8,239 nt of DNA from a virus (taxonomy: Duplodnaviria > Heunggongvirae > Uroviricota > Caudoviricetes): positions 1 to 8,239 of IMG/VR virus record IMGVR_UViG_3300014921_000099. One strand, given 5' to 3'. The position numbers and the translations under genes are program-made. Within the stretch, counting starts at the first letter, position 1, and every line of letters begins with the position of its first letter. The notes beneath the pieces are model-generated. The model made no database searches, was not told where the DNA came from, and saw only the letters and a list, made by a program, of their open reading frames with translations. Below are positions 1 to 8,239 of this stretch, piece after piece.

Positions 1-144
1 GTCTCGGAAGTCACGTTTACTCAGGACCAGAACGGCACCCTGACGGAAATCCGTGTCGGCCCGCCTGATGCTTATCTGCCTGAACCCGAAGCCCCCGGCG
101 CGCGGAAAAAGAAAAAAGCCAGAGTACAGGAGGACCCGTTCTGA
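1..144 (+). CDS. 3' end of an upstream phage tail/baseplate gene (partial; start lies outside the window)
   Basis: Frame 1 is open from base 1 to a TGA at 142-144 that overlaps the ATG at 144 of the next gene (TGATG coupling). Composition is GC-rich like the downstream tail genes. Product cannot be assigned from 47 residues. Confidence 0.45.
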   Translation, partial: VSEVTFTQDQNGTLTEIRVGPPDAYLPEPEAPGARKKKKARVQEDPF

Positions 145-692
145 TGAGGACGATTGAAGCCATGCAGCGACAACTTCTCGGCCTGATTGGGCGGGCCGTG
201 GTGAAAAGCATCAGTGCCGCCACGAAATGTCAGACCGTGGATGTGTCCCTGATTGCCGGTGAACCCAAAGCCGGGGTTGAACATCTTGAACCCTACGGTT
301 TTACCGCAAGGGCAAACAGCGGTGCGGAAGCGGTGGTGTTGTTTCCGGATGGCGACCGTTCTCATGCGGTGGTTGTTACGGTGTCGGACCGGCGCTACCG
401 CCTGAAAGGGCTGCAGACGGGTGAGGTGGCTGTCTATGACGATCAGGGGCAGTCTGTGACGCTGACCCGGGAGGGGATCGTGGTGGACGGTGCAGGGAAA
501 ACGATCACGTTTCGCAATGCAACTGAAGCACGTTTTGAAATGGATCTGGAAGTGACCGGACAAGTGAAAGACCTGTGCGACTCCGGCGGCACCACCATGT
601 CAGCGATGCGGCTTGCCTATAACGGGCATCGTCACAGAGAGAACGGTCAGGGCAGTAACACCGACAAACCTGATAAAGCGATGGAGGCATGA
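144..692 (+). CDS. Baseplate central spike protein (P2 gpV / Mu gp45-like)
   Basis: 182-aa ORF with AGGAGG at 128-133 upstream of ATG 144. Translation has the look of the gpV/gp45 spike family, including an HxH motif ('NGHRHRENG') near the C-terminus, typical of the metal-binding spike apex. Followed by the expected baseplate gene order. Assignment by family recognition, not by search. Confidence 0.8.
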   Translation: MRTIEAMQRQLLGLIGRAVVKSISAATKCQTVDVSLIAGEPKAGVEHLEPYGFTARANSGAEAVVLFPDGDRSHAVVVTVSDRRYRLKGLQTGEVAVYDDQGQSVTLTREGIVVDGAGKTITFRNATEARFEMDLEVTGQVKDLCDSGGTTMSAMRLAYNGHRHRENGQGSNTDKPDKAMEA

Positions 693-1117
693 TGGAACTG
701 TGGCTGACGGTGAACGGTAAACGCACCTGCGCCAGCGCACCGCTGGATCCGCTGACCCGCGCCGTGGTGATTTCCCTGTTCACCTGGCGGCGGGCGGAGC
801 CTGATGACAATGCCGACGTCCCGATGGGATGGTGGGGGGATACCTGGCCTGCGGTACAGAATGACCGTTACGGCTCCCGACTGTGGCTGCTTCAGCGCAG
901 CAAACTGACCAATCAGCTGGTGCAGACGGTAAGGGGATATATCCGCGAATGCCTGCAATGGATGACTGATGACGGCGTGGTGTCCCGTATTGATCTGGAT
1001 ATCCGCCGCACCGGGATTAATGAGCTGGGTAACAGTATCACCCTCTGGCGTCGTGATGGACCAGTAATGATTTCTTTTGATGATCTGTGGAGTGCGATAA
1101 CGCATGGCGGACAGTGA
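689..1117 (+). CDS. Phage GP46-family baseplate protein (Mu gp46-like)
   Basis: 142-aa ORF whose start overlaps the stop of the spike gene (ATGA/TGATG at 689-694). Size and position between spike and baseplate J match Mu-like baseplate modules. Confidence 0.75.
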   Translation: MMELWLTVNGKRTCASAPLDPLTRAVVISLFTWRRAEPDDNADVPMGWWGDTWPAVQNDRYGSRLWLLQRSKLTNQLVQTVRGYIRECLQWMTDDGVVSRIDLDIRRTGINELGNSITLWRRDGPVMISFDDLWSAITHGGQ

Positions 1118-2162
1118 ATTTCAGCGCCCGACGCTGGCAGAAAATATCAGTATGCTCCGTAACGATTTATTCGCCAGGCTGGACGTCAGCGACACGCTCC
1201 GGCGCATGGATGAAGACGTGCGGGCAAAGGTGTATGCGGCGGCGCTGCATACGGTCTACGGTTACATCGATTATCTGGCAATGAATATGCTGCCTGACCT
1301 GTGCGATGAGTCCTGGTTGGCGCGACATGCTGCGATGAAACGGTGTCCGCGCAAGGGAGCCACGGTTGCCAGCGGGTATATGCGCTGGGAAGGTGTCAGC
1401 GATGGCCTGAAGGTGACTGCCGGGAGTGTTATTCAGCGCGATGACCTGGTGCAGTACACGACAACTGACGATGCAATCAGCTCCGGTGGTGTCCTGCGCG
1501 TGCCGATCGCCTGCTCAAGTGCAGGTGCGGTCGGTAACGCTGACGACGGTACGGCATTAATCCTGGTCACGCCGGTGAATGGTCTGCCGTCTTCCGGTGT
1601 GGCTGACACCCTGACAGGCGGATTTGATACTGAAGAGCTGGATACGTGGCGCGCCCGCGTCATTGAGCCGTATTACTGGACGCCGCAGGGCGGGGCTGAC
1701 GGGGACTATGTCGTCTGGGCTAAAGAAGTGCCTGGCATTACCCGCGCATGGACATACCGACACTGGATGGGAACGGGGACTGTCGGTGTGATGATTGCCA
1801 GCAGTGACCTGATTAATCCCATTCCGGAAGAATCAACGGAAACGGCGGCAAGACAACATATCGGGCCACTGGCCCCGGTGGCAGGCTCTGATTTGTATGT
1901 GTTCAGGCCGGTGGCACATACGGTGGATTTTCATATCCGTGTGACGCCGGACACACCGGAAATACGGGCTGCCATCACCGCGGAGTTGCGTTCGTTCCTG
2001 CTGCGTGATGGTTATCCGCAGGGAGAACTGAAGGTGTCACGTATCAGTGAAGCGATTTCCGGTGCGAACGGGGAATACAGCCATCAGTTGCTTGCACCGG
2101 CGGACAATATCACCATTGCAAAAAATGAACTGGCGGTTCTGGGGGCGATTTCATGGACGTGA
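1104..2162 (+). CDS. Baseplate J-like protein (Mu gp47 / P2 gpJ family)
   Basis: 352-aa ORF overlapping the previous gene by 14 nt and the next by 10 nt. Size and position are typical of the baseplate J wedge protein. GC-rich codon usage consistent with neighbours. Confidence 0.8.
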
Positions 2163-2737
2163 CAAACGATGATTACATCCGTCTGTTGTCAGCACTGTTG
2201 CCGCCCGGTCCGGCGTGGTCAGCCAGCGATCCGGCGATTGCCGGTGCGGCACCGTCATTAACCCGCGTTCATCAGCGTGCGGATGCCCTGATGCGGGAGC
2301 TGGATCCGCGCACCACCACCGAACTGATAAATCGCTGGGAGCGTCTGTGCGGCCTGCCGGATGAATGTATTCCTACAGGGACACAGACCCTTCGCCAGCG
2401 TCAGCAACGGCTGGATGCGAAGGTGAACCTGGCGGGGGGCCTCAACGAGAATTTTTATCTTGCACAGCTTGCTGCCCTGGGCAGACCGGATGCCAACATC
2501 ACGCGATACGACAAAAGCACGTTCACCTGCTCATCGGCCTGTACTGACGCGGTGAATGCGCCTGAATGGCGGTATTACTGGCGGGTCAACATGCCAGCCG
2601 CCACCAACACCACCTGGATGACATGTGGCGATCCCTGTGATTCCGCGCTGCGCTTCTGGGGGGACACCGTTGTCGAGTGTGTTCTTAACAAACTCTGCCC
2701 GTCGCATACCTATGTGATTTTTAAATATCCGGAGTAA
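2153..2737 (+). CDS. Tail protein, P2 gpI / Mu gp48 / YmfQ-like (DUF2313 family)
   Basis: 194-aa ORF immediately after baseplate J and immediately before the tail fibre gene, the conserved location of the gpI-like protein. N-terminal '[16 protein letters not shown]' region is characteristic of this family as I recall it. Confidence 0.75.
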
Positions 2738-2740
2738 TCC

Positions 2741-3388
2741 ATGCATCGTATAGACACGAAAACCGCGCAGAAGGATAAGTTCGGCGCGGGTAAGAACGGT
2801 TTTACCCGTGGTAACCCCCAGACCGGCACGCCTGCCACCGATCTGGATGATGACTACTTTGACATGTTGCAGGAGGAGCTTTGCAGCGTTGTGGAGGCAT
2901 CCGGTGCCAGCCTGGAGAAGGGGCGGCATGACCAGCTGCTTACCGCGCTTCGTGCGCTGCTGTTAAGCCGCAAGAATCCGTTTGGCGATATCAAATCGGA
3001 TGGCACGGTGAAAACAGCTCTCGAAAACCTTGGTTTGGGAGAAGCGGCAAAGAGGAATGTGGGGACAGGAGAAAATCAGGTTCCGGATATGAACAGCTTT
3101 GGTAACTCATTGACCGCCAATGGATACCAGAAATTACCTGGGGGGATGATTATTCAATGGGGGAGTTTTTCTGTCTCACCAACCGGAGGAAGTGTTGGAA
3201 CAGTTGATATAACATTACCTGTAGCTTTCCCTGCTGCTTGTCGTTCGGTAAACGCTCTTATTTCAACTAATGATCCTTCTGCCCGTTCTGTGGGCTTTGA
3301 TATTGGAAGTACCAACAGAACCAAAATCAGATTTACTTACACTTCTGCTACAACAAATTCAATTTACTGGATGGCTGTGGGGTATTAA
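2741..3388 (+). CDS. Tail fibre protein: constant N-terminal part (codons 1-~93) fused to the variable C-terminal part currently in the expressed orientation
   Basis: 215-aa ORF. N-terminus '[21 protein letters not shown]...' resembles the conserved N-terminal region of enterobacterial e14/Mu-type side tail fibres. The reading frame runs through the crossover site at 3019-3042 ('LENLGLGE'). GC drops sharply downstream of the site, as expected for a swapped variable domain. Confidence 0.85.
3019..3042. repeat. Invertase crossover site (gix/pix/hix-like), left copy, inside the tail fibre ORF
   Basis: TCTCGAAAACC-TT-GGTTTGGGAGA has imperfect dyad symmetry and closely resembles hix/gix sites (hixL recalled as TTCTTGAAAACCAAGGTTTTTGATAA). 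Its reverse complement shares the core TTGGTTTGGGAGAAG exactly with the site at 4877-4900. Confidence 0.7.
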
Positions 3389-3390
3389 CT

Positions 3391-3822
3391 ATGGAAAAGA
3401 CATATTATTTTAATCCCTCTGATTCGGGATTTTATATTTCACCAGATAGCCAAACCATTCCTGAGAACGCTACGAAAATAAACTTTACTATTTATTCTGA
3501 GTTCGCAGGAGTTGCATGGCCTGATGGTAAAATACTTGGTTCAGATAAAAATGGTTTTCCAGCATGGCAGGATGCGCCACCACTTACCAGCGAAGAATTA
3601 ATCTCAATCGCTGAATCAAATAAACAGCGATTAGTTAATCAGGCCAACGAATACATGAACAGTAAACAATGGCCTGGTAAAGCGGCGATTGGTCGTCTGA
3701 AAGGTGAGGAACTGGCGCAATATAATTTGTGGCTGGATTATCTGGACGCACTGGAACTGGTCGATACTTCCAGTGCGCCAGATATTGAATGGCCTACTCC
3801 TCCGGCAGTTCAGGCCAGATGA
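3391..3822 (+). CDS. Tail fibre assembly chaperone (Tfa / Mu U-like), expressed orientation
   Basis: 143-aa ORF starting 2 nt after the fibre stop. C-terminus '...LDYLDALELVDTSSAPDIEWPTPP' is the conserved Tfa C-terminal motif. Confidence 0.85.
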   Translation: MEKTYYFNPSDSGFYISPDSQTIPENATKINFTIYSEFAGVAWPDGKILGSDKNGFPAWQDAPPLTSEELISIAESNKQRLVNQANEYMNSKQWPGKAAIGRLKGEELAQYNLWLDYLDALELVDTSSAPDIEWPTPPAVQAR

Positions 3823-4396
3823 CATCCGGCGCGGTACTGGTATCTGTTGCCGTCACCGCGTCAATGTAATCCAGCACAGTGTTAAGTCGGGTGGTCTCTG
3901 CCTGCATCAGCTTCCGCCCGGCCTGCAATTTCAGTTGAATCAGACTAATGGAAGCCATTGCAGTATCAATCAGTGACTGACGTTGTGCTTCTGCCGCGTC
4001 TACTGCGGCGCTATGCTGTGTCTCAGTATCCGTTACCCATTTCTCACCATCCCATTTATCGTATGGCGTTAACGGGGCGATAGTGGTTGTTTTTTCGGGG
4101 TAATCACCCGGAGTTGTGATTTCTTTGGCGTCTCCCGTTTCGGTGTTATAGACGATTTCACCGCGATGGTCTGGTACATATTCCCATGAGTTAAAATCTG
4201 CAGAGCGGCAGATTGCATAACCAGCTTTGTAGGTGCCTGGAGCATCTAAACAGGAATATGCCGGAATGCCGACACCAACAGCAAGATATTCAGTTGAAGC
4301 TGAAATATACTCCCGACTCATGACGTCAAAGTTATAAACAGTAATTTCTCCTGCCATAGTGGCAATTAATTCACTGTTTAATTCTGCGTTATTCAT
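3794..4396 (-). CDS. Alternate tail fibre assembly chaperone (Tfa' / Mu U'-like), silent orientation
   Basis: 200-aa ORF on the - strand. C-terminus '...LDYIDAVTATDTSTAPDVIWPELPEE' is the same conserved Tfa motif. Start ATG overlaps the stop of the alternate fibre cassette (TAATG at 4394-4398). Its 3' end overlaps the + strand tfa convergently by 29 nt. Confidence 0.8.
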   Translation of the reverse strand: MNNAELNSELIATMAGEITVYNFDVMSREYISASTEYLAVGVGIPAYSCLDAPGTYKAGYAICRSADFNSWEYVPDHRGEIVYNTETGDAKEITTPGDYPEKTTTIAPLTPYDKWDGEKWVTDTETQHSAAVDAAEAQRQSLIDTAMASISLIQLKLQAGRKLMQAETTRLNTVLDYIDAVTATDTSTAPDVIWPELPEE

Positions 4397-4900
4397 TATG
4401 CAGCCCTCACAATATAGTTAAAAGCGACATTTCGTGGGCGTGTTTCATTCGCACCTGCAGGTTTAGTCGTTGCCGCAACAACACCACCCTCTGTAATAGC
4501 CGGGTTGGGAATTGGGTAATTATCGAAGTCAATGGCTGGAGACAGGGGCGTGATTTGTTTTAAAATCGTGGTGCCTGTAAAACTTTCCAGAGTCTGGTCG
4601 TTAGTTCGTGAAGTCCAGATTCCCCAATAGTGGTTATGACTGACAATCGCACCGTCCTGAAGCGTTAATAATCCCCTTCCGTTATCCACTCCACGCCCGT
4701 CATCCCAGCCACGAATAAACTCACCACGTAAATCAGGCAATTTATTTGTCGGATAAGCCTTTGCCAGTTCCGGGTATTCTTCAGCAGAAAAAGCGGCACC
4801 GTTGCATTTCAGCCAGCCTGTTGGCGGAGTGGCGGAAGGCCACGGAACAGGCACACCAACGGGGAATGCAGAACCTTCTCCCAAACCAACGTTTAAGAAA
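4396..4900 (-). CDS. Alternate tail fibre C-terminal (receptor-binding) cassette, promoterless and lacking its own N-terminus; becomes fused to the constant fibre N-terminus after inversion
   Basis: Minus-strand frame is open from the crossover site to the stop at 4396-4398. The frame through the site reads 'FLNVGLGE', matching 'LENLGLGE' at the left site, so inversion gives an in-frame fusion. Contains a typical fibre tip motif 'PVPWP...GWLKCNG...YPEL'. The ORF-track ATG at 4929 is probably not a real start. Confidence 0.75.
4877..4900. repeat. Invertase crossover site, right copy (inverted relative to 3019-3042), just upstream of the invertase remnant
   Basis: TCTCCCAAACCAACGTTTAAGAAA. The first 15 nt are identical to the reverse complement of the left site. 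Position immediately 5' of the invertase start is the canonical arrangement. Confidence 0.7.
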
Positions 4901-4955
4901 ATGCAGAGGTAACAGCTAACTGGCATCATTCCTGCTTTTGTCAGGGGGAGCTACC

Positions 4956-5162
4956 ATGCTTATTGGCTATGTAAGCGTATCAAAAAATGACCAGAACACA
5001 GATCTACAACGTAATACGTTGAACTGTGCAGGATGCGAGTTGATTTTTGAAGATAAGTGGTACAAAGTCCGACAGGCCGGGCTGAAAAAACTGCTCAGGA
5101 CACTATTGGCAGTAGACACTCTGGTTGTCTGGAAGCCGGGTAGCTCAGGAGCAGAACAATAG
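4956..5162 (+). pseudogene. Serine DNA invertase (Pin/Gin/Hin/Cin family), 5'-terminal remnant only; truncated and degenerate
   Basis: Translation from ATG 4956 (GGGGGAG RBS at 4944-4950) gives 'MLIGYVSVSKNDQNTDLQRN..CAGCE.IFEDK', the unmistakable N-terminus of Gin/Pin/Hin invertases. The conserved Arg of the 'GY.RVS' active-site motif is Ser here. Similarity decays after 'DTLVVWK' and the frame stops at 5162 after ~69 codons, where full-length invertases are ~185-190 aa. Downstream DNA is unrelated AT-rich sequence. The ORF-track start at 4938 is a TTG; I prefer ATG 4956. Confidence 0.8.
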
Positions 5163-5345
5163 TAAGCTACTGTGATATGCTGAAGTCTGAGTGTTTTTGC
5201 ACAATATAAGAGTATCCGTGAATTGCACATCGCTATTGATGAGTATATCCATATTACATTAATGAACGTCTGATATACTATAATTTTAGCTATGTCTTTT
5301 ATGATAGAATTAGGAAACAATAAAACATCATTGATGATGTACCTT

Positions 5346-5352
5346 TAAGGAG
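5346..5352 (+). promoter_or_regulatory. Ribosome-binding site of the 377-aa cargo gene
   Basis: TAAGGAG, 5 nt upstream of ATG 5358. Confidence 0.6.
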
Positions 5353-5357
5353 TTTAT

Positions 5358-6491
5358 ATGCTGGAAACAGCTCAAAAGAATGCAGGAAGACCTTATCCTG
5401 ATGCTCTTGTAAATCGCTTCGTTTTAGATATATCTAAGCTAAAGGATGGTGATGTTATCGTAGAGCATGGTTATAGTACTTACAGCCCAACAATTGAAAA
5501 AGTAACTAAGTGTTATTATACGCATGCAATGATTTACCTTGAGGGAACTATTATTGAGGCTACAAGTGACGGTGGCGTGTTTTCTAGAGTTCCCAATAGA
5601 ATAGCTGTTCCATTAGAAAAAGATTTGGTTGTATTAAGATTAAAGAATTCATTAGATCCGTATATTATGAATCTAATAACATCAAGGGCTAGGGAGTTGA
5701 TTGGTTCAAGCTATAGTATAACTGAAGCAGCATCAACACAAATATATAAAAACACTCCTGCTAAAAAAGCAAATATAAAAATCAAACCTAAGAGAAGTCA
5801 ATTCTGTTCTAGACTTGTTGCTCAATGCTATTCTTATGGTGGAGTTAATATAGTCGATAATATAGATTACTGTACGCCGAAGGATATCTTTAACTCTATA
5901 TACTTGCAACCAGTTCATAACGCAATTAAAGAAGGTTCGTCAGAAGAAATCTATCATGCCAATATAGGGGAGTTACATCCTAAACACCTAAAATCTTGTG
6001 TCGCCTGGGTTAAAACTGCAAAAAAAATTCTTGCCAAGCATGATGTTAAAGTTCAAACAATTAATGAAATCATACATGCCGTGGTAAAATTAAATAATAC
6101 CAAAGTCGATAAGGCAGTCTTTAAAGCCATCAATGATAGTGGTTACTTACAAGATTATGTTGATGATCGCATTCAAAATGAATATAGATATAACATAGTA
6201 ATGTTTCTTGATTTTTATAAAAAACAACAAATCTCTATCGAGATGGAAATTGAAAAAGAATTTGGCATTTATAAAACCAGGAAAAGTAATTTTCAAACTT
6301 ATAAGGATATGTATGAAGAACACCCAGCCAGAATAATAAAATGCCATCTTGATCTTGAAAAAAAACTATTAAAAAGCATTCATGAAAGATTAACCATTAT
6401 CCTTACCGTATGTCAGATGTTAGCATTAACCCCGAAAAATATAGCCAAAGCAAAAGAAATATTTATAGATATAAAATTCTTACTTGAATAA
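5358..6491 (+). CDS. Hypothetical two-domain protein: N-terminal permuted NlpC/P60-like (YiiX/DUF830-type) Cys/His hydrolase domain, C-terminal Lys/Glu-rich helical domain of unknown function
   Basis: 377-aa ORF with strong RBS and a rho-independent terminator 10 nt after the stop. About 30% GC against ~60% in the tail genes. N-terminal ~180 aa contain 'DGDVIVEHGY', 'THAMIY', 'IIEATSDGGV' and 'FCSRLV', which I read as the His-before-Cys arrangement of permuted papain-fold enzymes (candidate catalytic H56 and C150). Residues ~190-377 are K/E-rich with no motif I recognise. Domain call is from motif recognition only. Confidence 0.8.
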   Translation: MLETAQKNAGRPYPDALVNRFVLDISKLKDGDVIVEHGYSTYSPTIEKVTKCYYTHAMIYLEGTIIEATSDGGVFSRVPNRIAVPLEKDLVVLRLKNSLDPYIMNLITSRARELIGSSYSITEAASTQIYKNTPAKKANIKIKPKRSQFCSRLVAQCYSYGGVNIVDNIDYCTPKDIFNSIYLQPVHNAIKEGSSEEIYHANIGELHPKHLKSCVAWVKTAKKILAKHDVKVQTINEIIHAVVKLNNTKVDKAVFKAINDSGYLQDYVDDRIQNEYRYNIVMFLDFYKKQQISIEMEIEKEFGIYKTRKSNFQTYKDMYEEHPARIIKCHLDLEKKLLKSIHERLTIILTVCQMLALTPKNIAKAKEIFIDIKFLLE

Positions 6492-6500
6492 TAGATGGTT

Positions 6501-6528
6501 AAAGGCTCGATATTGAGCCTTTTTATTA
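6501..6528 (+). terminator. Rho-independent terminator of the 377-aa gene
   Basis: AAAGGCTC-gatatt-GAGCCTTT perfect 8-bp stem with 6-nt loop, followed by a T-rich run (TTTATT), 10 nt after the TAA stop. Confidence 0.7.
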
Positions 6529-6539
6529 ACAGCGTTTAC

Positions 6540-7020
6540 ATAAGAGATATTACGGAGTGTTTTTGTAAGGAGGGGTTAATAATCACCTTCATTTTTATAT
6601 GGCTCGAACTATGTAGTTGAATGAAATATTACGAGGTCTGACTGTTGCATGGTTAACACCATCGCTAACATATGGATCGGGATAAGGGAATCTGGAAAAT
6701 CCAAAACTGTAATCGACTATACCATCATGATTACTGCATGACCGGAGCCTACGTCAAAGTGCCCAGCATACTGTGTGAAAGATGTTGCTGCTTGAAAACT
6801 AAGTAATGTCATACGATTATCGATTCCTCTTCCATCATCCTAGCCACGAATAAATTCACCACGTGACTCGGGTAATATGCCAGCCGGATAAACCGCGTCT
6901 AATTTTGGATAGATATTTTTATCGAAGGGGCACCGTTATATTTCAGCCAGTCTTCTGGTGGGTTGGGGAGGGGCAACGGCACTGGCAACGCGGAGCCTTC
7001 CTCCAAACCAAAAAATAAAA
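6540..7020 (-). pseudogene. Decayed second copy of the alternate tail fibre C-terminal cassette, with remnant of the tfa' start and of the crossover site
   Basis: Hand alignment shows roughly 65-70% identity between 6590-7012 and 4396-4900, in the same orientation. It includes a crossover-site remnant (CCTTCCTCCAAACCAA at ~6996-7012) and a 'ttcat' junction remnant at 6588-6592. The frame is broken: TGG to TAG in the 'GEFIRGW' region plus indels, and no ORF of 60 aa or more is called here. Upstream of the junction only ~18 codons of a tfa'-like start remain. Confidence 0.6.
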
Positions 7021-7202
7021 ACTAGAAAGCCTGAGTCTGGTGCAATACCGAATTCAGGCTATGGTAACCGCTTACTATCATGTTTGATTTTAAGGAGGCT
7101 GCTTAGAGAAGCGATTTTAACGTTCTTAAGATGAATAACACATAGCTGACGCAAATGTTGTTTGCATTATGCAACATTTATTTATGGGGTATTTCAACCG
7201 AT

Positions 7203-7580
7203 TTAAGCTTTTACTCGGCCTTTAACTCCCGCCATTAGACTATGCTTTCCTTCTAAATCTACGTCAGATGTCCATATTGTGTAATTGCGGCTCTTGCGGC
7301 TAGAGGCAACAATCTTACTCTTAATTTCTCTTGGGGACATGTTCTTTGCTTGAGCTACAAGCACATAGTCTTTGGATGCTTTCTCTACCGCTTTCAATAA
7401 ATTTTCTGTGAGGATTTGTCCGTTGTTACGGCATCTACGAGTATTAAATCGTACAGCAAAATTCAGCGCATCCAGATAATCAGTGCGGATAGTTTCTTCT
7501 TTGAGCATCTGTTGCACGAATTTGCGGGCAGTTTTCGATTTCCCCAATTGTTTCACTACTGCTTGCTTACCGGGCTTCAT
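7203..7580 (-). CDS. Hypothetical small basic protein (125 aa, about a quarter Lys/Arg); possible nucleic-acid-binding protein
   Basis: ORF with a consensus AGGAGG RBS 5 nt upstream of the ATG. Lies 68 nt downstream of, and co-directional with, the 196-aa gene. About 40% GC. No family recognised from the sequence. Confidence 0.65.
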   Translation of the reverse strand: MKPGKQAVVKQLGKSKTARKFVQQMLKEETIRTDYLDALNFAVRFNTRRCRNNGQILTENLLKAVEKASKDYVLVAQAKNMSPREIKSKIVASSRKSRNYTIWTSDVDLEGKHSLMAGVKGRVKA

Positions 7581-7585
7581 ATGTT

Positions 7586-7591
7586 CCTCCT
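7586..7591 (-). promoter_or_regulatory. Ribosome-binding site of the 125-aa gene
   Basis: Minus-strand AGGAGG (plus-strand CCTCCT at 7586-7591) followed by 5 nt and the ATG at 7578-7580. Confidence 0.6.
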
Positions 7592-7648
7592 AACATTCTA
7601 CTAATAAATATTTTATCATAATAGTTCATAAAACACTCAACACAAATA

Positions 7649-8239
7649 TCAGATCAGTTTTGTCAAGAGCTTAGCGCGGGGCAAATTATTTCGCTTCACT
7701 CGAGCTTTGTCTGCAGCATTCAGTGAATAACCAAAAGATTCATATCTTTCAATGAGCTGCTTGTCAGGCCGACTAATATTGACCTGTCTGATACCATATG
7801 CATCAGCGAAACTCTCTGCAATGATTAGCGCAATTGGCATGACGAAACCTTTCAATGGATGATCATATGGATTTCCTTCGAGATATCTAAGTGTTATGCA
7901 GAGCCGTTTTTTAGAACGTCGACCAAGCATCAACCCGCAAAGAAAATCGCGGCATCGAATACTCACATCAATGCGTTTGGTCTGATTACGCCTTTCTTGG
8001 TTCCAGTTGATGTCAATGTAATGCCGTTTTTCTGGAAGACGCCACTCCCTGCTAGCCTCATCTGAGTCTTCATAATAGATGTGACCCAATTTGATTTCAT
8101 TAACCGGCAATCGGTTACCAAACCTTGTAGCAATAGAAAGCATAGCATCTGCGATTGCCTCAGAATAGATTAACTCATGGGTTAGCTCTTCAGTGGGACG
8201 AACTATGCTTGCTTGTACTGACTCCATATCCACTACCAT
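7649..8239 (-). CDS. Hypothetical protein (196 aa or more); N-terminus may extend beyond the window edge
   Basis: Long minus-strand ORF ending at a TGA at 7649-7651. The window ends exactly at the reverse complement of an ATG, so the true start is uncertain. About 40-42% GC. No family recognised with confidence. Confidence 0.6.
   Translation of the reverse strand: MVVDMESVQASIVRPTEELTHELIYSEAIADAMLSIATRFGNRLPVNEIKLGHIYYEDSDEASREWRLPEKRHYIDINWNQERRNQTKRIDVSIRCRDFLCGLMLGRRSKKRLCITLRYLEGNPYDHPLKGFVMPIALIIAESFADAYGIRQVNISRPDKQLIERYESFGYSLNAADKARVKRNNLPRAKLLTKLI

What the first reader, a model, noticed from the sequence alone, without database searches (positions are those of the whole stretch)
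4956..5162. The invertase that should drive the switch is a dead remnant; the switch may be frozen or dependent on an invertase in trans
The ORF keeps the family N-terminus and the serine nucleophile position, but the conserved Arg of the 'RVS' motif is replaced by Ser, similarity degrades after ~60 residues, and the frame terminates at ~69 codons where full-length family members are ~185-190 aa. The remaining gene body has been replaced by the AT-rich cargo. Both crossover sites appear intact, so the segment could still be flipped by a Pin/Gin/Hin-family invertase encoded elsewhere in the genome. The enhancer that normally lies in the 5' part of the invertase gene may survive in the remnant, but I did not identify it.
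Basis: seen in the sequence. Interest (0 to 1): 0.55.

Follow-up and report, generated by a model that had tools for sequence, protein, structure and literature searches.

The report
Dead invertase gene; switch still flips
This is the decayed front third of a DNA-invertase gene in an E. coli prophage, and strain comparisons show that the tail-fibre segment it once flipped has still been flipped since, most likely by an invertase made elsewhere in the genome – a known kind of event.

Summary
Window 4956-5162 is a 68-codon remnant of a pinE/gin-type serine DNA invertase. It is about 90% identical in DNA to intact pin genes up to about 5139, and nothing of the gene remains after that. Its lesions are:
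- R7S and T10K;
- a -5 bp and a -1 bp deletion that scramble residues 35-42;
- loss of everything after K62, including two catalytic arginines, the E-helix and the DNA-binding domain.

It is not an assembly error: the identical allele occurs in many independent E. coli assemblies, next to ssrA.

The switch is not frozen. Strains with a 100% identical remnant, junction and cargo carry the 1.8-kb tail-fibre segment in either orientation. The exchange lies inside the 20-nt inverted repeat (3025-3044 / 4875-4894). Both orientations occur on both segment haplotypes and within one chromosomal background, so the segment flipped at least twice after the truncation. This points to an invertase acting in trans.

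The region homologous to the Fis enhancer (4977-5040) survives, but nothing shows it is selectively retained.

A second, independent E. coli locus shows the same pattern.

Precedents exist (PinQ flips the e14 P segment; Fin/Hin), so this is an ordinary new member of a known kind.

The parts
4956..5162 (+). 68-codon pseudogene remnant of a pinE/gin-type serine DNA invertase. The homologous part is 4956 to about 5139. The last 6-7 codons and the stop come from unrelated sequence.
4974..4985 (+). Active-site motif SVSK in place of RVST. Arg7 is changed to Ser (AGC), Ser9 is kept (TCA), and Thr10 is changed to Lys (AAA).
   Evidence: R8 and S10 of Tn3 resolvase are crucial for catalysis (PMC2794168).
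5058..5081 (+). Out-of-frame stretch (codons 35-42) between a -5 bp deletion at about 5050 and a -1 bp deletion at 5081/5082. It destroys the conserved ISGTKSERPG motif.
   Evidence: alignments; tblastn
5136..5143 (.). Truncation junction: the end of homology with invertase genes. AT-rich unrelated DNA follows.
   Evidence: all phage matches end at 5139
4977..5040 (.). Candidate recombinational enhancer, assigned by homology to the enhancer-bearing 5' part of gin/pin/hin. 15-bp Fis core I is GTATCAAAAAATGAC (4977-4991). Core II is GTGCAGGATGCGAGT (5026-5040), where the +7 C has changed to T. The centres are 49 bp apart, and core I is about 96 bp from the centre of ixR.
   Evidence: alignment; enhancer properties from PMC3798978; Fis core definition from PMC4784862. 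The assignment is an inference; binding was not tested.
4876..4901 (+). Right crossover site ixR: TTCTCCCAAACC AA CGTTTAAGAAAA.
   Evidence: I1. It contains the e14 repeat CCTTCTCCCAAACCAA (PMC12529663).
3018..3043 (-). Left crossover site ixL. Its reverse complement reads TTCTCCCAAACC AA GGTTTTCGAGAG. It lies inside the tail-fibre gene.
   Evidence: I1: arms 3025-3044 and 4875-4894, 95% complementary
3044..4875 (.). Invertible segment. It holds the fibre C-terminus Sv (gp53-like, to 3388, +), tfa (3391-3822, +), tfa' (3794-4396, -) and the alternative fibre C-terminus S'v (collar domain, 4396-4929, -).
   Evidence: Pfam. The segment is found flipped at 99.4-100% identity in L001, L010, L013, L015, L019, L020 and L021.
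5163..6491 (+). AT-rich replacement DNA. It contains a 377-aa cargo gene (5358-6491) with a weak N-terminal match to permuted papain-like enzymes (YiiX/YaeF).

Best explanation
The ORF is a non-functional pseudogene: the 5' third of a pinE/gin-type DNA invertase gene. It lies at the right end of an e14-like prophage with a Mu-type tail, integrated next to ssrA in E. coli. A deletion or replacement that brought in AT-rich cargo removed everything after codon 62, and the stump has since decayed further.

The tail-fibre switch beside it is structurally intact and has continued to invert after its own invertase was lost. The most likely mechanism has three parts:
- a Gin/Pin/Cin/Hin-family invertase encoded elsewhere (another resident prophage or an infecting phage) binds the two 26-bp sites;
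- Fis binds the enhancer that still lies in the first ~85 bp of the stump;
- together they flip the 1.8-kb segment.

Shown here: the homology, the lesions, the identity of the allele across strains, both orientations with the exchange inside the inverted repeat, and at least two independent flips.

Inferred: that an invertase acting in trans did the flipping, and that the retained enhancer is used.
For: Remnant and lesions. Mutations of Tn3 resolvase Y6, R8, S10, D36, R68 and R71 greatly reduce catalysis (PMC2794168). Here the R8 equivalent is Ser and the R68/R71 equivalents are deleted.

The same allele is present in 12 distinct fetched loci.

Orientation:
- As in the window: L005, L011, L016, L017, L018.
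- Flipped: L001, L010, L013, L015, L019, L020, L021.
- The remnant and junction are 100% identical and the cargo 99.9-100% in all of them.

Identity to the window starts exactly at 4875 in the flipped strain PEA14-20 (H1). In L015 both junctions lie within 3025-3044 and 4875-4894.

At least two independent flips:
- Segment haplotype 3082T/3322C occurs in both orientations (window, L005, L011 versus L021).
- Haplotype 3082A/3322T/3777T also occurs in both (L016-18 versus L015, L001, L010 and others).
- L021 (flipped) differs from L005/L011 (not flipped) by 1 base in 6500 bp of chromosomal flank.
- L015 (flipped) shares most of the ~85 left-arm differences from the window, and the 6358 deletion, with L016/L017 (not flipped).

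Possible donors of an invertase:
- A pin 3'-part-like sequence is present in 3582 of 5426 complete E. coli genomes (an upper bound, because the query also contained the cargo).
- 5 of the 6 complete chromosomes that carry this cargo have at least one further matching place.
- P2-like and Mu-like phages carry invertases 82-89% identical to the stump.

Precedent: PinQ of the Qin prophage inverts the e14 P segment at the same repeat (PMC12529663).

A second, unrelated E. coli locus with a 64-aa Gin-like stump also shows its segment in both orientations.
Against: - No invertase acting in trans was identified in any genome that still has the complete switch. Whole genomes could not be scanned with these tools.
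- Enhancer function is untested. The +7 C of the putative Fis core II has mutated to T.
- Substitution density inside the enhancer (5 in 64 bp) is no lower than in the rest of the stump (8 substitutions plus 2 indels in 120 bp; my count on the alignments). Nothing therefore shows the enhancer is under selection.
- Divergence between prophage variants changes sharply at the two crossover sites. Homologous exchange between related prophages has therefore occurred here and could in principle have moved a flipped segment.
- The prophage is defective in some carriers (L005), so flipping may have no consequence.
Confidence: 0.8

Rival explanations
1. The switch has been frozen since the truncation. 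On this view the two orientations were already present in related prophages with working invertases, and the dead-pin-plus-cargo block spread into them by homologous recombination. Alternatively, flipped segments were imported from such relatives.
For: Divergence between variants drops from about 85 differences in 1-3016 to 4 in 3044-4875 and none fixed in 4876-8239, with the breaks at the crossover sites. A gene-conversion tract is visible in L020 at 3675-3741.
Against: Each transfer would need a crossover inside the 265 bp between ixR and the truncation point, at least twice. No near-identical prophage with an intact pin exists among 5426 complete genomes; the best pinE matches are about 93% identical. 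L021 differs from L005/L011 by orientation alone, on a chromosomal flank that differs by 1 base in 6500 and on the same segment haplotype.
Confidence: 0.1
2. Inversion happens without any invertase, by rare RecA-dependent or microhomology-mediated recombination between the 20-nt inverted repeats.
For: The repeats are 15 nt perfect and 20 nt with one mismatch. No donor invertase was identified.
Against: The repeats are very short for homologous recombination. Yet at least two flips occurred among lineages whose 3.3-kb right flank differs by 0-2 bases. The repeats are canonical 26-bp Gin/Pin crossover sites. Wild-type e14 flips at the same sequence, and flipping there depends on Pin proteins.
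Confidence: 0.05
3. The 68-aa product is itself functional, for example as a regulator or inhibitor of other invertases.
For: The reading frame stays open through two compensating deletions. Short N-terminal invertase fragments are common in enterobacterial genomes, and a 51-position PHROG profile exists for them.
Against: It lacks the dimerisation helix and the DNA-binding domain. It carries non-conservative changes at invariant residues (R7S, T10K, G55V) and a scrambled stretch. Five replacement changes (R7S, T10K, A21T, S53L, G55V) against four silent ones, by my reading of the alignments, fit neutral decay. RefSeq annotates it as an incomplete pseudogene.
Confidence: 0.03
4. The truncation is a sequencing or assembly artefact.
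For: None found.
Against: The identical junction is present in finished chromosomes and in many independent short-read assemblies from different hosts and countries.
Confidence: 0.01

Closest known systems
e14 prophage P segment with pinE (E. coli K-12), flipped also by PinQ of prophage Qin
   Same: The gene order is the same: baseplate J/I, tail-fibre constant part, two tail-fibre C-termini and two tfa genes in opposite orientation, then the invertase, then variable cargo. The crossover repeat CCTTCTCCCAAACCAA is the same. The stump is about 90% identical to pinE. Inversion by an invertase from a different prophage has been shown experimentally (PMC12529663).
   Different: Here the resident invertase is dead, so every flip must come from elsewhere. 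The element sits at ssrA, not icd. The cargo is a 377-aa AT-rich gene instead of mcrA.
Phage Mu G segment with gin and its internal enhancer
   Same: The layout is S-U / U'-S' followed by the invertase. The 26-bp site aligns with gix. The first ~90 bp of the gene, which in gin/hin carry the enhancer, are nearly identical at the DNA level. From my own knowledge, not checked here: gin-minus Mu is complemented by the e14 pin function (van de Putte et al. 1984).
   Different: Mu Gin is intact (193 aa) and acts on its own segment. The central dinucleotide is GA in gix and AA here.
Salmonella H segment: Hin plus the prophage invertase Fin
   Same: This is a switch that a second, prophage-encoded invertase can drive. 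The only source seen here is the title of Kutsukake et al. 2006 in a reference list. The switch also uses a Fis enhancer, 65 bp long and about 100 bp from one crossover site inside the invertase gene (PMC3798978).
   Different: It controls a promoter, not tail-fibre C-termini, and hin is normally intact.
Second orphan switch found here (64-aa Gin-like stump, P0077, near trpA/ompW in E. coli)
   Same: A truncated invertase N-terminus lies next to an intact gix-like site. The ~3.2-kb Stf/tfa segment occurs in both orientations between strains with 99.8-100% identical flanks.
   Different: It is a different prophage type with a long lambdoid side tail fibre, a different invertase lineage, and a nonsense codon after D64 rather than replacement at K62.

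Membership tests
Gin/Pin/Cin/Hin serine DNA invertase (as a working enzyme) | Sequence homology of the N-terminal catalytic domain | tested here: met
   Pfam PF00239 27.2 bits against a cut-off of 23.3; PHROG invertase E 2e-23; Gin 4m6f E 8e-19. This shows descent from the family, not function.
Gin/Pin/Cin/Hin serine DNA invertase (as a working enzyme) | Nucleophile serine (Gin/Pin S9, Tn3 S10) | tested here: met
   TCA at 4980-4982 aligns with S9.
Gin/Pin/Cin/Hin serine DNA invertase (as a working enzyme) | Catalytic arginine before the serine (Pin R7, Tn3 R8) | tested here: not met
   AGC (Ser) at 4974-4976. R8 is crucial in Tn3 resolvase.
Gin/Pin/Cin/Hin serine DNA invertase (as a working enzyme) | Conserved D-K-x-S-G...R-P-G stretch (Tn3 D36, S39, R45) | tested here: not met
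   D33 is kept, but residues 35-42 are out of frame after the -5 and -1 deletions.
Gin/Pin/Cin/Hin serine DNA invertase (as a working enzyme) | LDRLGR motif with two catalytic arginines (Tn3 R68, R71) | tested here: not met
   Homology ends after K62.
Gin/Pin/Cin/Hin serine DNA invertase (as a working enzyme) | E-helix and C-terminal helix-turn-helix DNA-binding domain; length about 184-193 aa | tested here: not met
   The product is 68 aa. No trace of the 3' two-thirds is found anywhere in the window by tblastn or blastn.
Fis-dependent invertible tail-fibre switch (Mu G / e14 P type) | Two 26-bp crossover sites in inverted orientation with identical central dinucleotide | tested here: met
   3018-3043 and 4876-4901, both with central AA.
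Fis-dependent invertible tail-fibre switch (Mu G / e14 P type) | Alternative tail-fibre C-termini, each with its own assembly protein, in opposite orientation | tested here: met
   Gp53-like_C and Collar fibre ends, plus two Caudo_TAP genes.
Fis-dependent invertible tail-fibre switch (Mu G / e14 P type) | Segment observed in both orientations with exchange at the crossover sites | tested here: met
   Seen between strains, not within a culture.
Fis-dependent invertible tail-fibre switch (Mu G / e14 P type) | Cis enhancer with a Fis site at each end, about 100 bp from one crossover site | tested here: inconclusive
   The homologous 64-bp stretch 4977-5040 is present at the right distance. Core I keeps G-N13-C; core II has lost the +7 C. 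Fis binding cannot be tested with these tools.
Fis-dependent invertible tail-fibre switch (Mu G / e14 P type) | Functional invertase encoded next to the segment | tested here: not met
   See the rows above. The switch is an orphan.

The most novel reading that the evidence does not exclude
Orphan invertible switches may be a recurrent, maintained state. On this reading, the first ~190 bp of dead invertase genes persist because they carry the cis-acting Fis enhancer. The switch then behaves like a non-autonomous element serviced by invertases of other prophages. Its tail-fibre products may have been co-opted by the host, as reported for e14 StfE2, which blocks T2 adsorption.
Probability: 0.15. 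Interest if true: 0.55.

Novelty: new member of a known kind. Interest (0 to 1): 0.3.

Why it matters
The finding shows, from natural variation alone, that a prophage tail-fibre switch can outlive its own recombinase and keep flipping. Orientation at such loci therefore depends on which other invertases the genome holds. This matters for annotation, because 'no invertase nearby' does not mean a locked switch. It also matters for interpreting assembly differences between strains, and for the recent idea that cryptic-prophage inversions affect phage resistance. As biology it confirms classical cross-complementation among Gin/Pin/Cin/Hin enzymes and does not reveal a new mechanism.

Tried and rejected
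- I looked for a displaced 3' part of pin in the window with tblastn (PinE, Gin) and word-7 blastn. None was found. A 21-residue match of the Gin C-terminus to cargo residues 121-141 (E 0.045) is most likely chance.
- Assembly error is rejected.
- I looked for the cargo or junction DNA in phage and plasmid collections. Only the pseudo tail-fibre piece matches, so the origin of 5140-6600 is unknown.
- The three cargo proteins have no PADLOC hit. The 377-aa protein has no PDB hit, only weak matches to permuted papain-like enzymes (YiiX/YaeF), and PHROG 1128.
- Rfam gives nothing at gathering threshold. The promoter and terminator scan shows no excess over shuffles.
- I tried to get printed Fis-site sequences of the hin/gin enhancers from the literature. 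Figures are not held and Hengen 1997 is not in the library. The enhancer is therefore placed by homology and by the G-N13-C core rule only.
- I tested whether the enhancer part of the stump is better conserved than the rest. It is not (5 in 64 bp against 8 in 120 bp plus 2 indels).
- I could not scan whole carrier genomes for intact invertases. A chimeric query gave only counts of extra matching places in six complete genomes, all of which have lost the left half of the switch to IS3.

Full report
**Setting.** The window is the right end of an E. coli prophage that lies next to ssrA/smpB.
- Genes 144-2737 are Mu-type baseplate genes (gp45, gp46, gp47/J, gp48).
- 2741-3388 is a tail-fibre gene whose C-terminus is gp53-like.
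- 3391-3822 (+) and 3794-4396 (-) are two tail-fibre assembly genes.
- 4396-4929 (-) is an alternative fibre C-terminus with a collar domain.
- Downstream of 5163 the DNA is AT-rich (GC about 0.28-0.35, against 0.45-0.6 upstream).

This is the Mu G / e14 P layout. In related strains an intact 184-aa pinE follows the segment, and variable cargo follows that: an RM system in strain A14 and McrA in phage vB_EcoM-689R6.

**The observation.** The ORF runs from 4956 to 5162 (68 codons) and is a genuine invertase relative.

Aligned with intact pinE and Mu gin, it matches from the start codon to about 5139. Every phage invertase match also stops at 5139. After that point the sequence is unrelated, and no 3' part of the gene exists anywhere in the window.

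Within the homologous 184 bp I find these lesions:
- R7S (AGC);
- T10K;
- A21T;
- a 5-bp deletion in an AAGA repeat at about 5050;
- a 1-bp deletion at 5081/5082, which together with the 5-bp deletion puts codons 35-42 out of frame;
- S53L;
- G55V.

In Tn3 resolvase, mutations of Y6, R8, S10, D36, R68 and R71 greatly reduce catalysis (PMC2794168). Here the R8 equivalent is mutated and the R68/R71 equivalents are deleted. The E-helix and the DNA-binding domain are gone as well. The gene cannot make an active enzyme.

The mix of five replacement and four silent changes is my reading of the alignments. It fits neutral decay.

**Not an artefact.** The same 68-aa product is indexed in 74 blocks of public assemblies and the cargo protein in 410. 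The remnant and junction are 100% identical in 12 distinct fetched loci (L014 repeats L005), including finished chromosomes. RefSeq already marks the ORF as an incomplete recombinase pseudogene.

**Is the switch frozen?** No.

Among loci with the identical dead allele:
- L005, L011, L016, L017 and L018 have the segment as in the window.
- L001, L010, L013, L015, L019, L020 and L021 have it reversed, at 99.4-100% identity.

In the flipped strain PEA14-20, identity to the window begins exactly at 4875. In L015 the prophage tail module is complete and the constant fibre part is fused to the collar C-terminus (260 aa). Both of its junctions fall inside the inverted repeat 3025-3044 / 4875-4894.

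The repeats are canonical 26-bp crossover sites:
- 3018-3043 reads, in reverse complement, TTCTCCCAAACC AA GGTTTTCGAGAG.
- 4876-4901 reads TTCTCCCAAACC AA CGTTTAAGAAAA.

They align with gix and contain the e14 repeat.

**More than one flip.**
- Two SNP haplotypes inside the segment each occur in both orientations.
- L021 (flipped) and L005/L011 (not flipped) share the segment haplotype and differ by 1 base in 6.5 kb of chromosomal flank.
- L015 (flipped) shares most of the ~85 left-arm differences from the window, and a 1-bp deletion at 6358, with L016/L017 (not flipped).

Because all of them carry the same truncation, at least two inversions happened after the invertase died. Among the 23 contigs read for the remnant, about 8 are in the window's orientation and 15 are reversed. 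This count assumes the 'similar places' not shown have the same arrangement as the one listed.

**Mechanism.** Wild-type invertases of this family are inactive without a Fis-bound enhancer in cis. That enhancer is 65 bp long, has a Fis site at each end, and normally lies about 100 bp from one crossover site (PMC3798978).

The first ~90 bp of gin, pinE and the stump are almost identical at the DNA level. By homology and the G-N13-C rule for Fis cores, I place the enhancer at 4977-5040. Core I is at 4977-4991 and core II at 5026-5040. Core I is about 96 bp from the centre of ixR. The AT-rich stretches that lie between the two sites in hin (ATTTA, TAATG) correspond here to ATCTA and TAATA.

Core II has lost its +7 C. 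The enhancer stretch is no better conserved than the rest of the stump. Its function is therefore plausible but unproven.

The enzyme must come from elsewhere:
- A pin 3'-part-like sequence is found in up to 3582 of 5426 complete E. coli genomes.
- 5 of the 6 complete chromosomes that carry this cargo have at least one further matching place.
- Invertases 82-89% identical to the stump are carried by P2-like and Mu-like phages.

Trans action has direct precedent: PinQ of the Qin prophage inverts the e14 P segment (PMC12529663).

**Generality.** A protein search with the stump returned many short N-terminal invertase fragments in enterobacteria. One of them is a 64-aa Gin-like stump near trpA/ompW. 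It also sits beside an intact site and a 3.2-kb fibre segment that is inverted between strains with near-identical flanks. Orphan switches that still flip are therefore not unique to this window.

**Limits.**
- No donor invertase was identified in a genome that has the full switch.
- Flipping was inferred between strains, not seen within a culture.
- Homologous exchange between related prophages has clearly occurred at this locus: divergence steps down at both crossover sites. It remains a less parsimonious alternative for the orientation differences.
- In many carriers IS3 has deleted the left half of the switch, and in some the prophage lacks head and tail genes. The flipping may therefore have no present function.

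**Verdict.** The observation and the interpretation both hold. The open alternative is resolved towards trans-driven inversion. This is a well-documented instance of a known phenomenon rather than a new kind of system.

Noticed in passing
window 6600-7022: A decayed third tail-fibre C-terminus lies on the minus strand. It is 71-77% identical to 4658-4889 and carries stops and frameshifts. It ends in a half-degenerate third crossover-like site (6997-7022, TTCCTCCAAACC AA AAAATAAAAACT) in direct orientation to ixR. No invertase sequence follows it. It looks like an older layer of the same kind of loss.
   Followed up: partly
L025:706-3952 (and L024, L026-L029): A second orphan switch in E. coli near trpA/ompW. 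A 64-aa Gin-like invertase stump (P0077) lies beside a gix-like site and a ~3.2-kb Stf/tfa segment. The segment is found in both orientations between strains with 99.8-100% identical flanks.
   Followed up: partly
proteins P0004, P0011, P0061, P0062, P0009: Several independent short invertase fragments lose homology right after ...VVWKLDRLG. P0009 (117 aa, Salmonella) is an in-frame fusion of the N-terminal 68 residues to the C-terminal HTH domain. This may be a deletion hotspot; it is unexplained.
   Followed up: no
window 1-3016 versus 3044-4875 versus 4876-8239: Between window-type and L016-type prophages there are about 85 differences left of ixL, 4 inside the invertible segment and none fixed to the right of ixR. 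The recombination breakpoints therefore coincide with the two crossover sites.
   Followed up: partly
L001, L010, L019 (IS3 abuts window ~4039); L002, L004, L006-L009, L012 (IS3 abuts window 5013): Most carriers of the cargo have lost the prophage left of these points to IS3-adjacent deletions. In the two loci checked for each class (L001 and L002) the left IS3 junction is the same, in an alpha-amylase-like pseudogene. The second class cuts through the stump and its putative enhancer.
   Followed up: partly
window 5358-6491, 7203-7580, 7649-8239: The three cargo genes between the stump and ssrA (377, 125 and 196 aa) have no defence-system, PDB or clear family match; the 377-aa protein has a weak N-terminal match to permuted papain-like enzymes (YiiX/YaeF). 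They occupy the position where related elements carry restriction or modification genes (A14 RM system, McrA, Mu mom).
   Followed up: partly
window 6358: A 1-bp deletion in an A8 run of the cargo gene gives a 337-aa variant in L015, L016 and L017.
   Followed up: no
L004, L008, L012, L013, L016-L018, right of window end: In some strains a P4-like satellite, or a 186/P2-like prophage, is inserted on the ssrA side of this island. The ssrA site is therefore used repeatedly.
   Followed up: no
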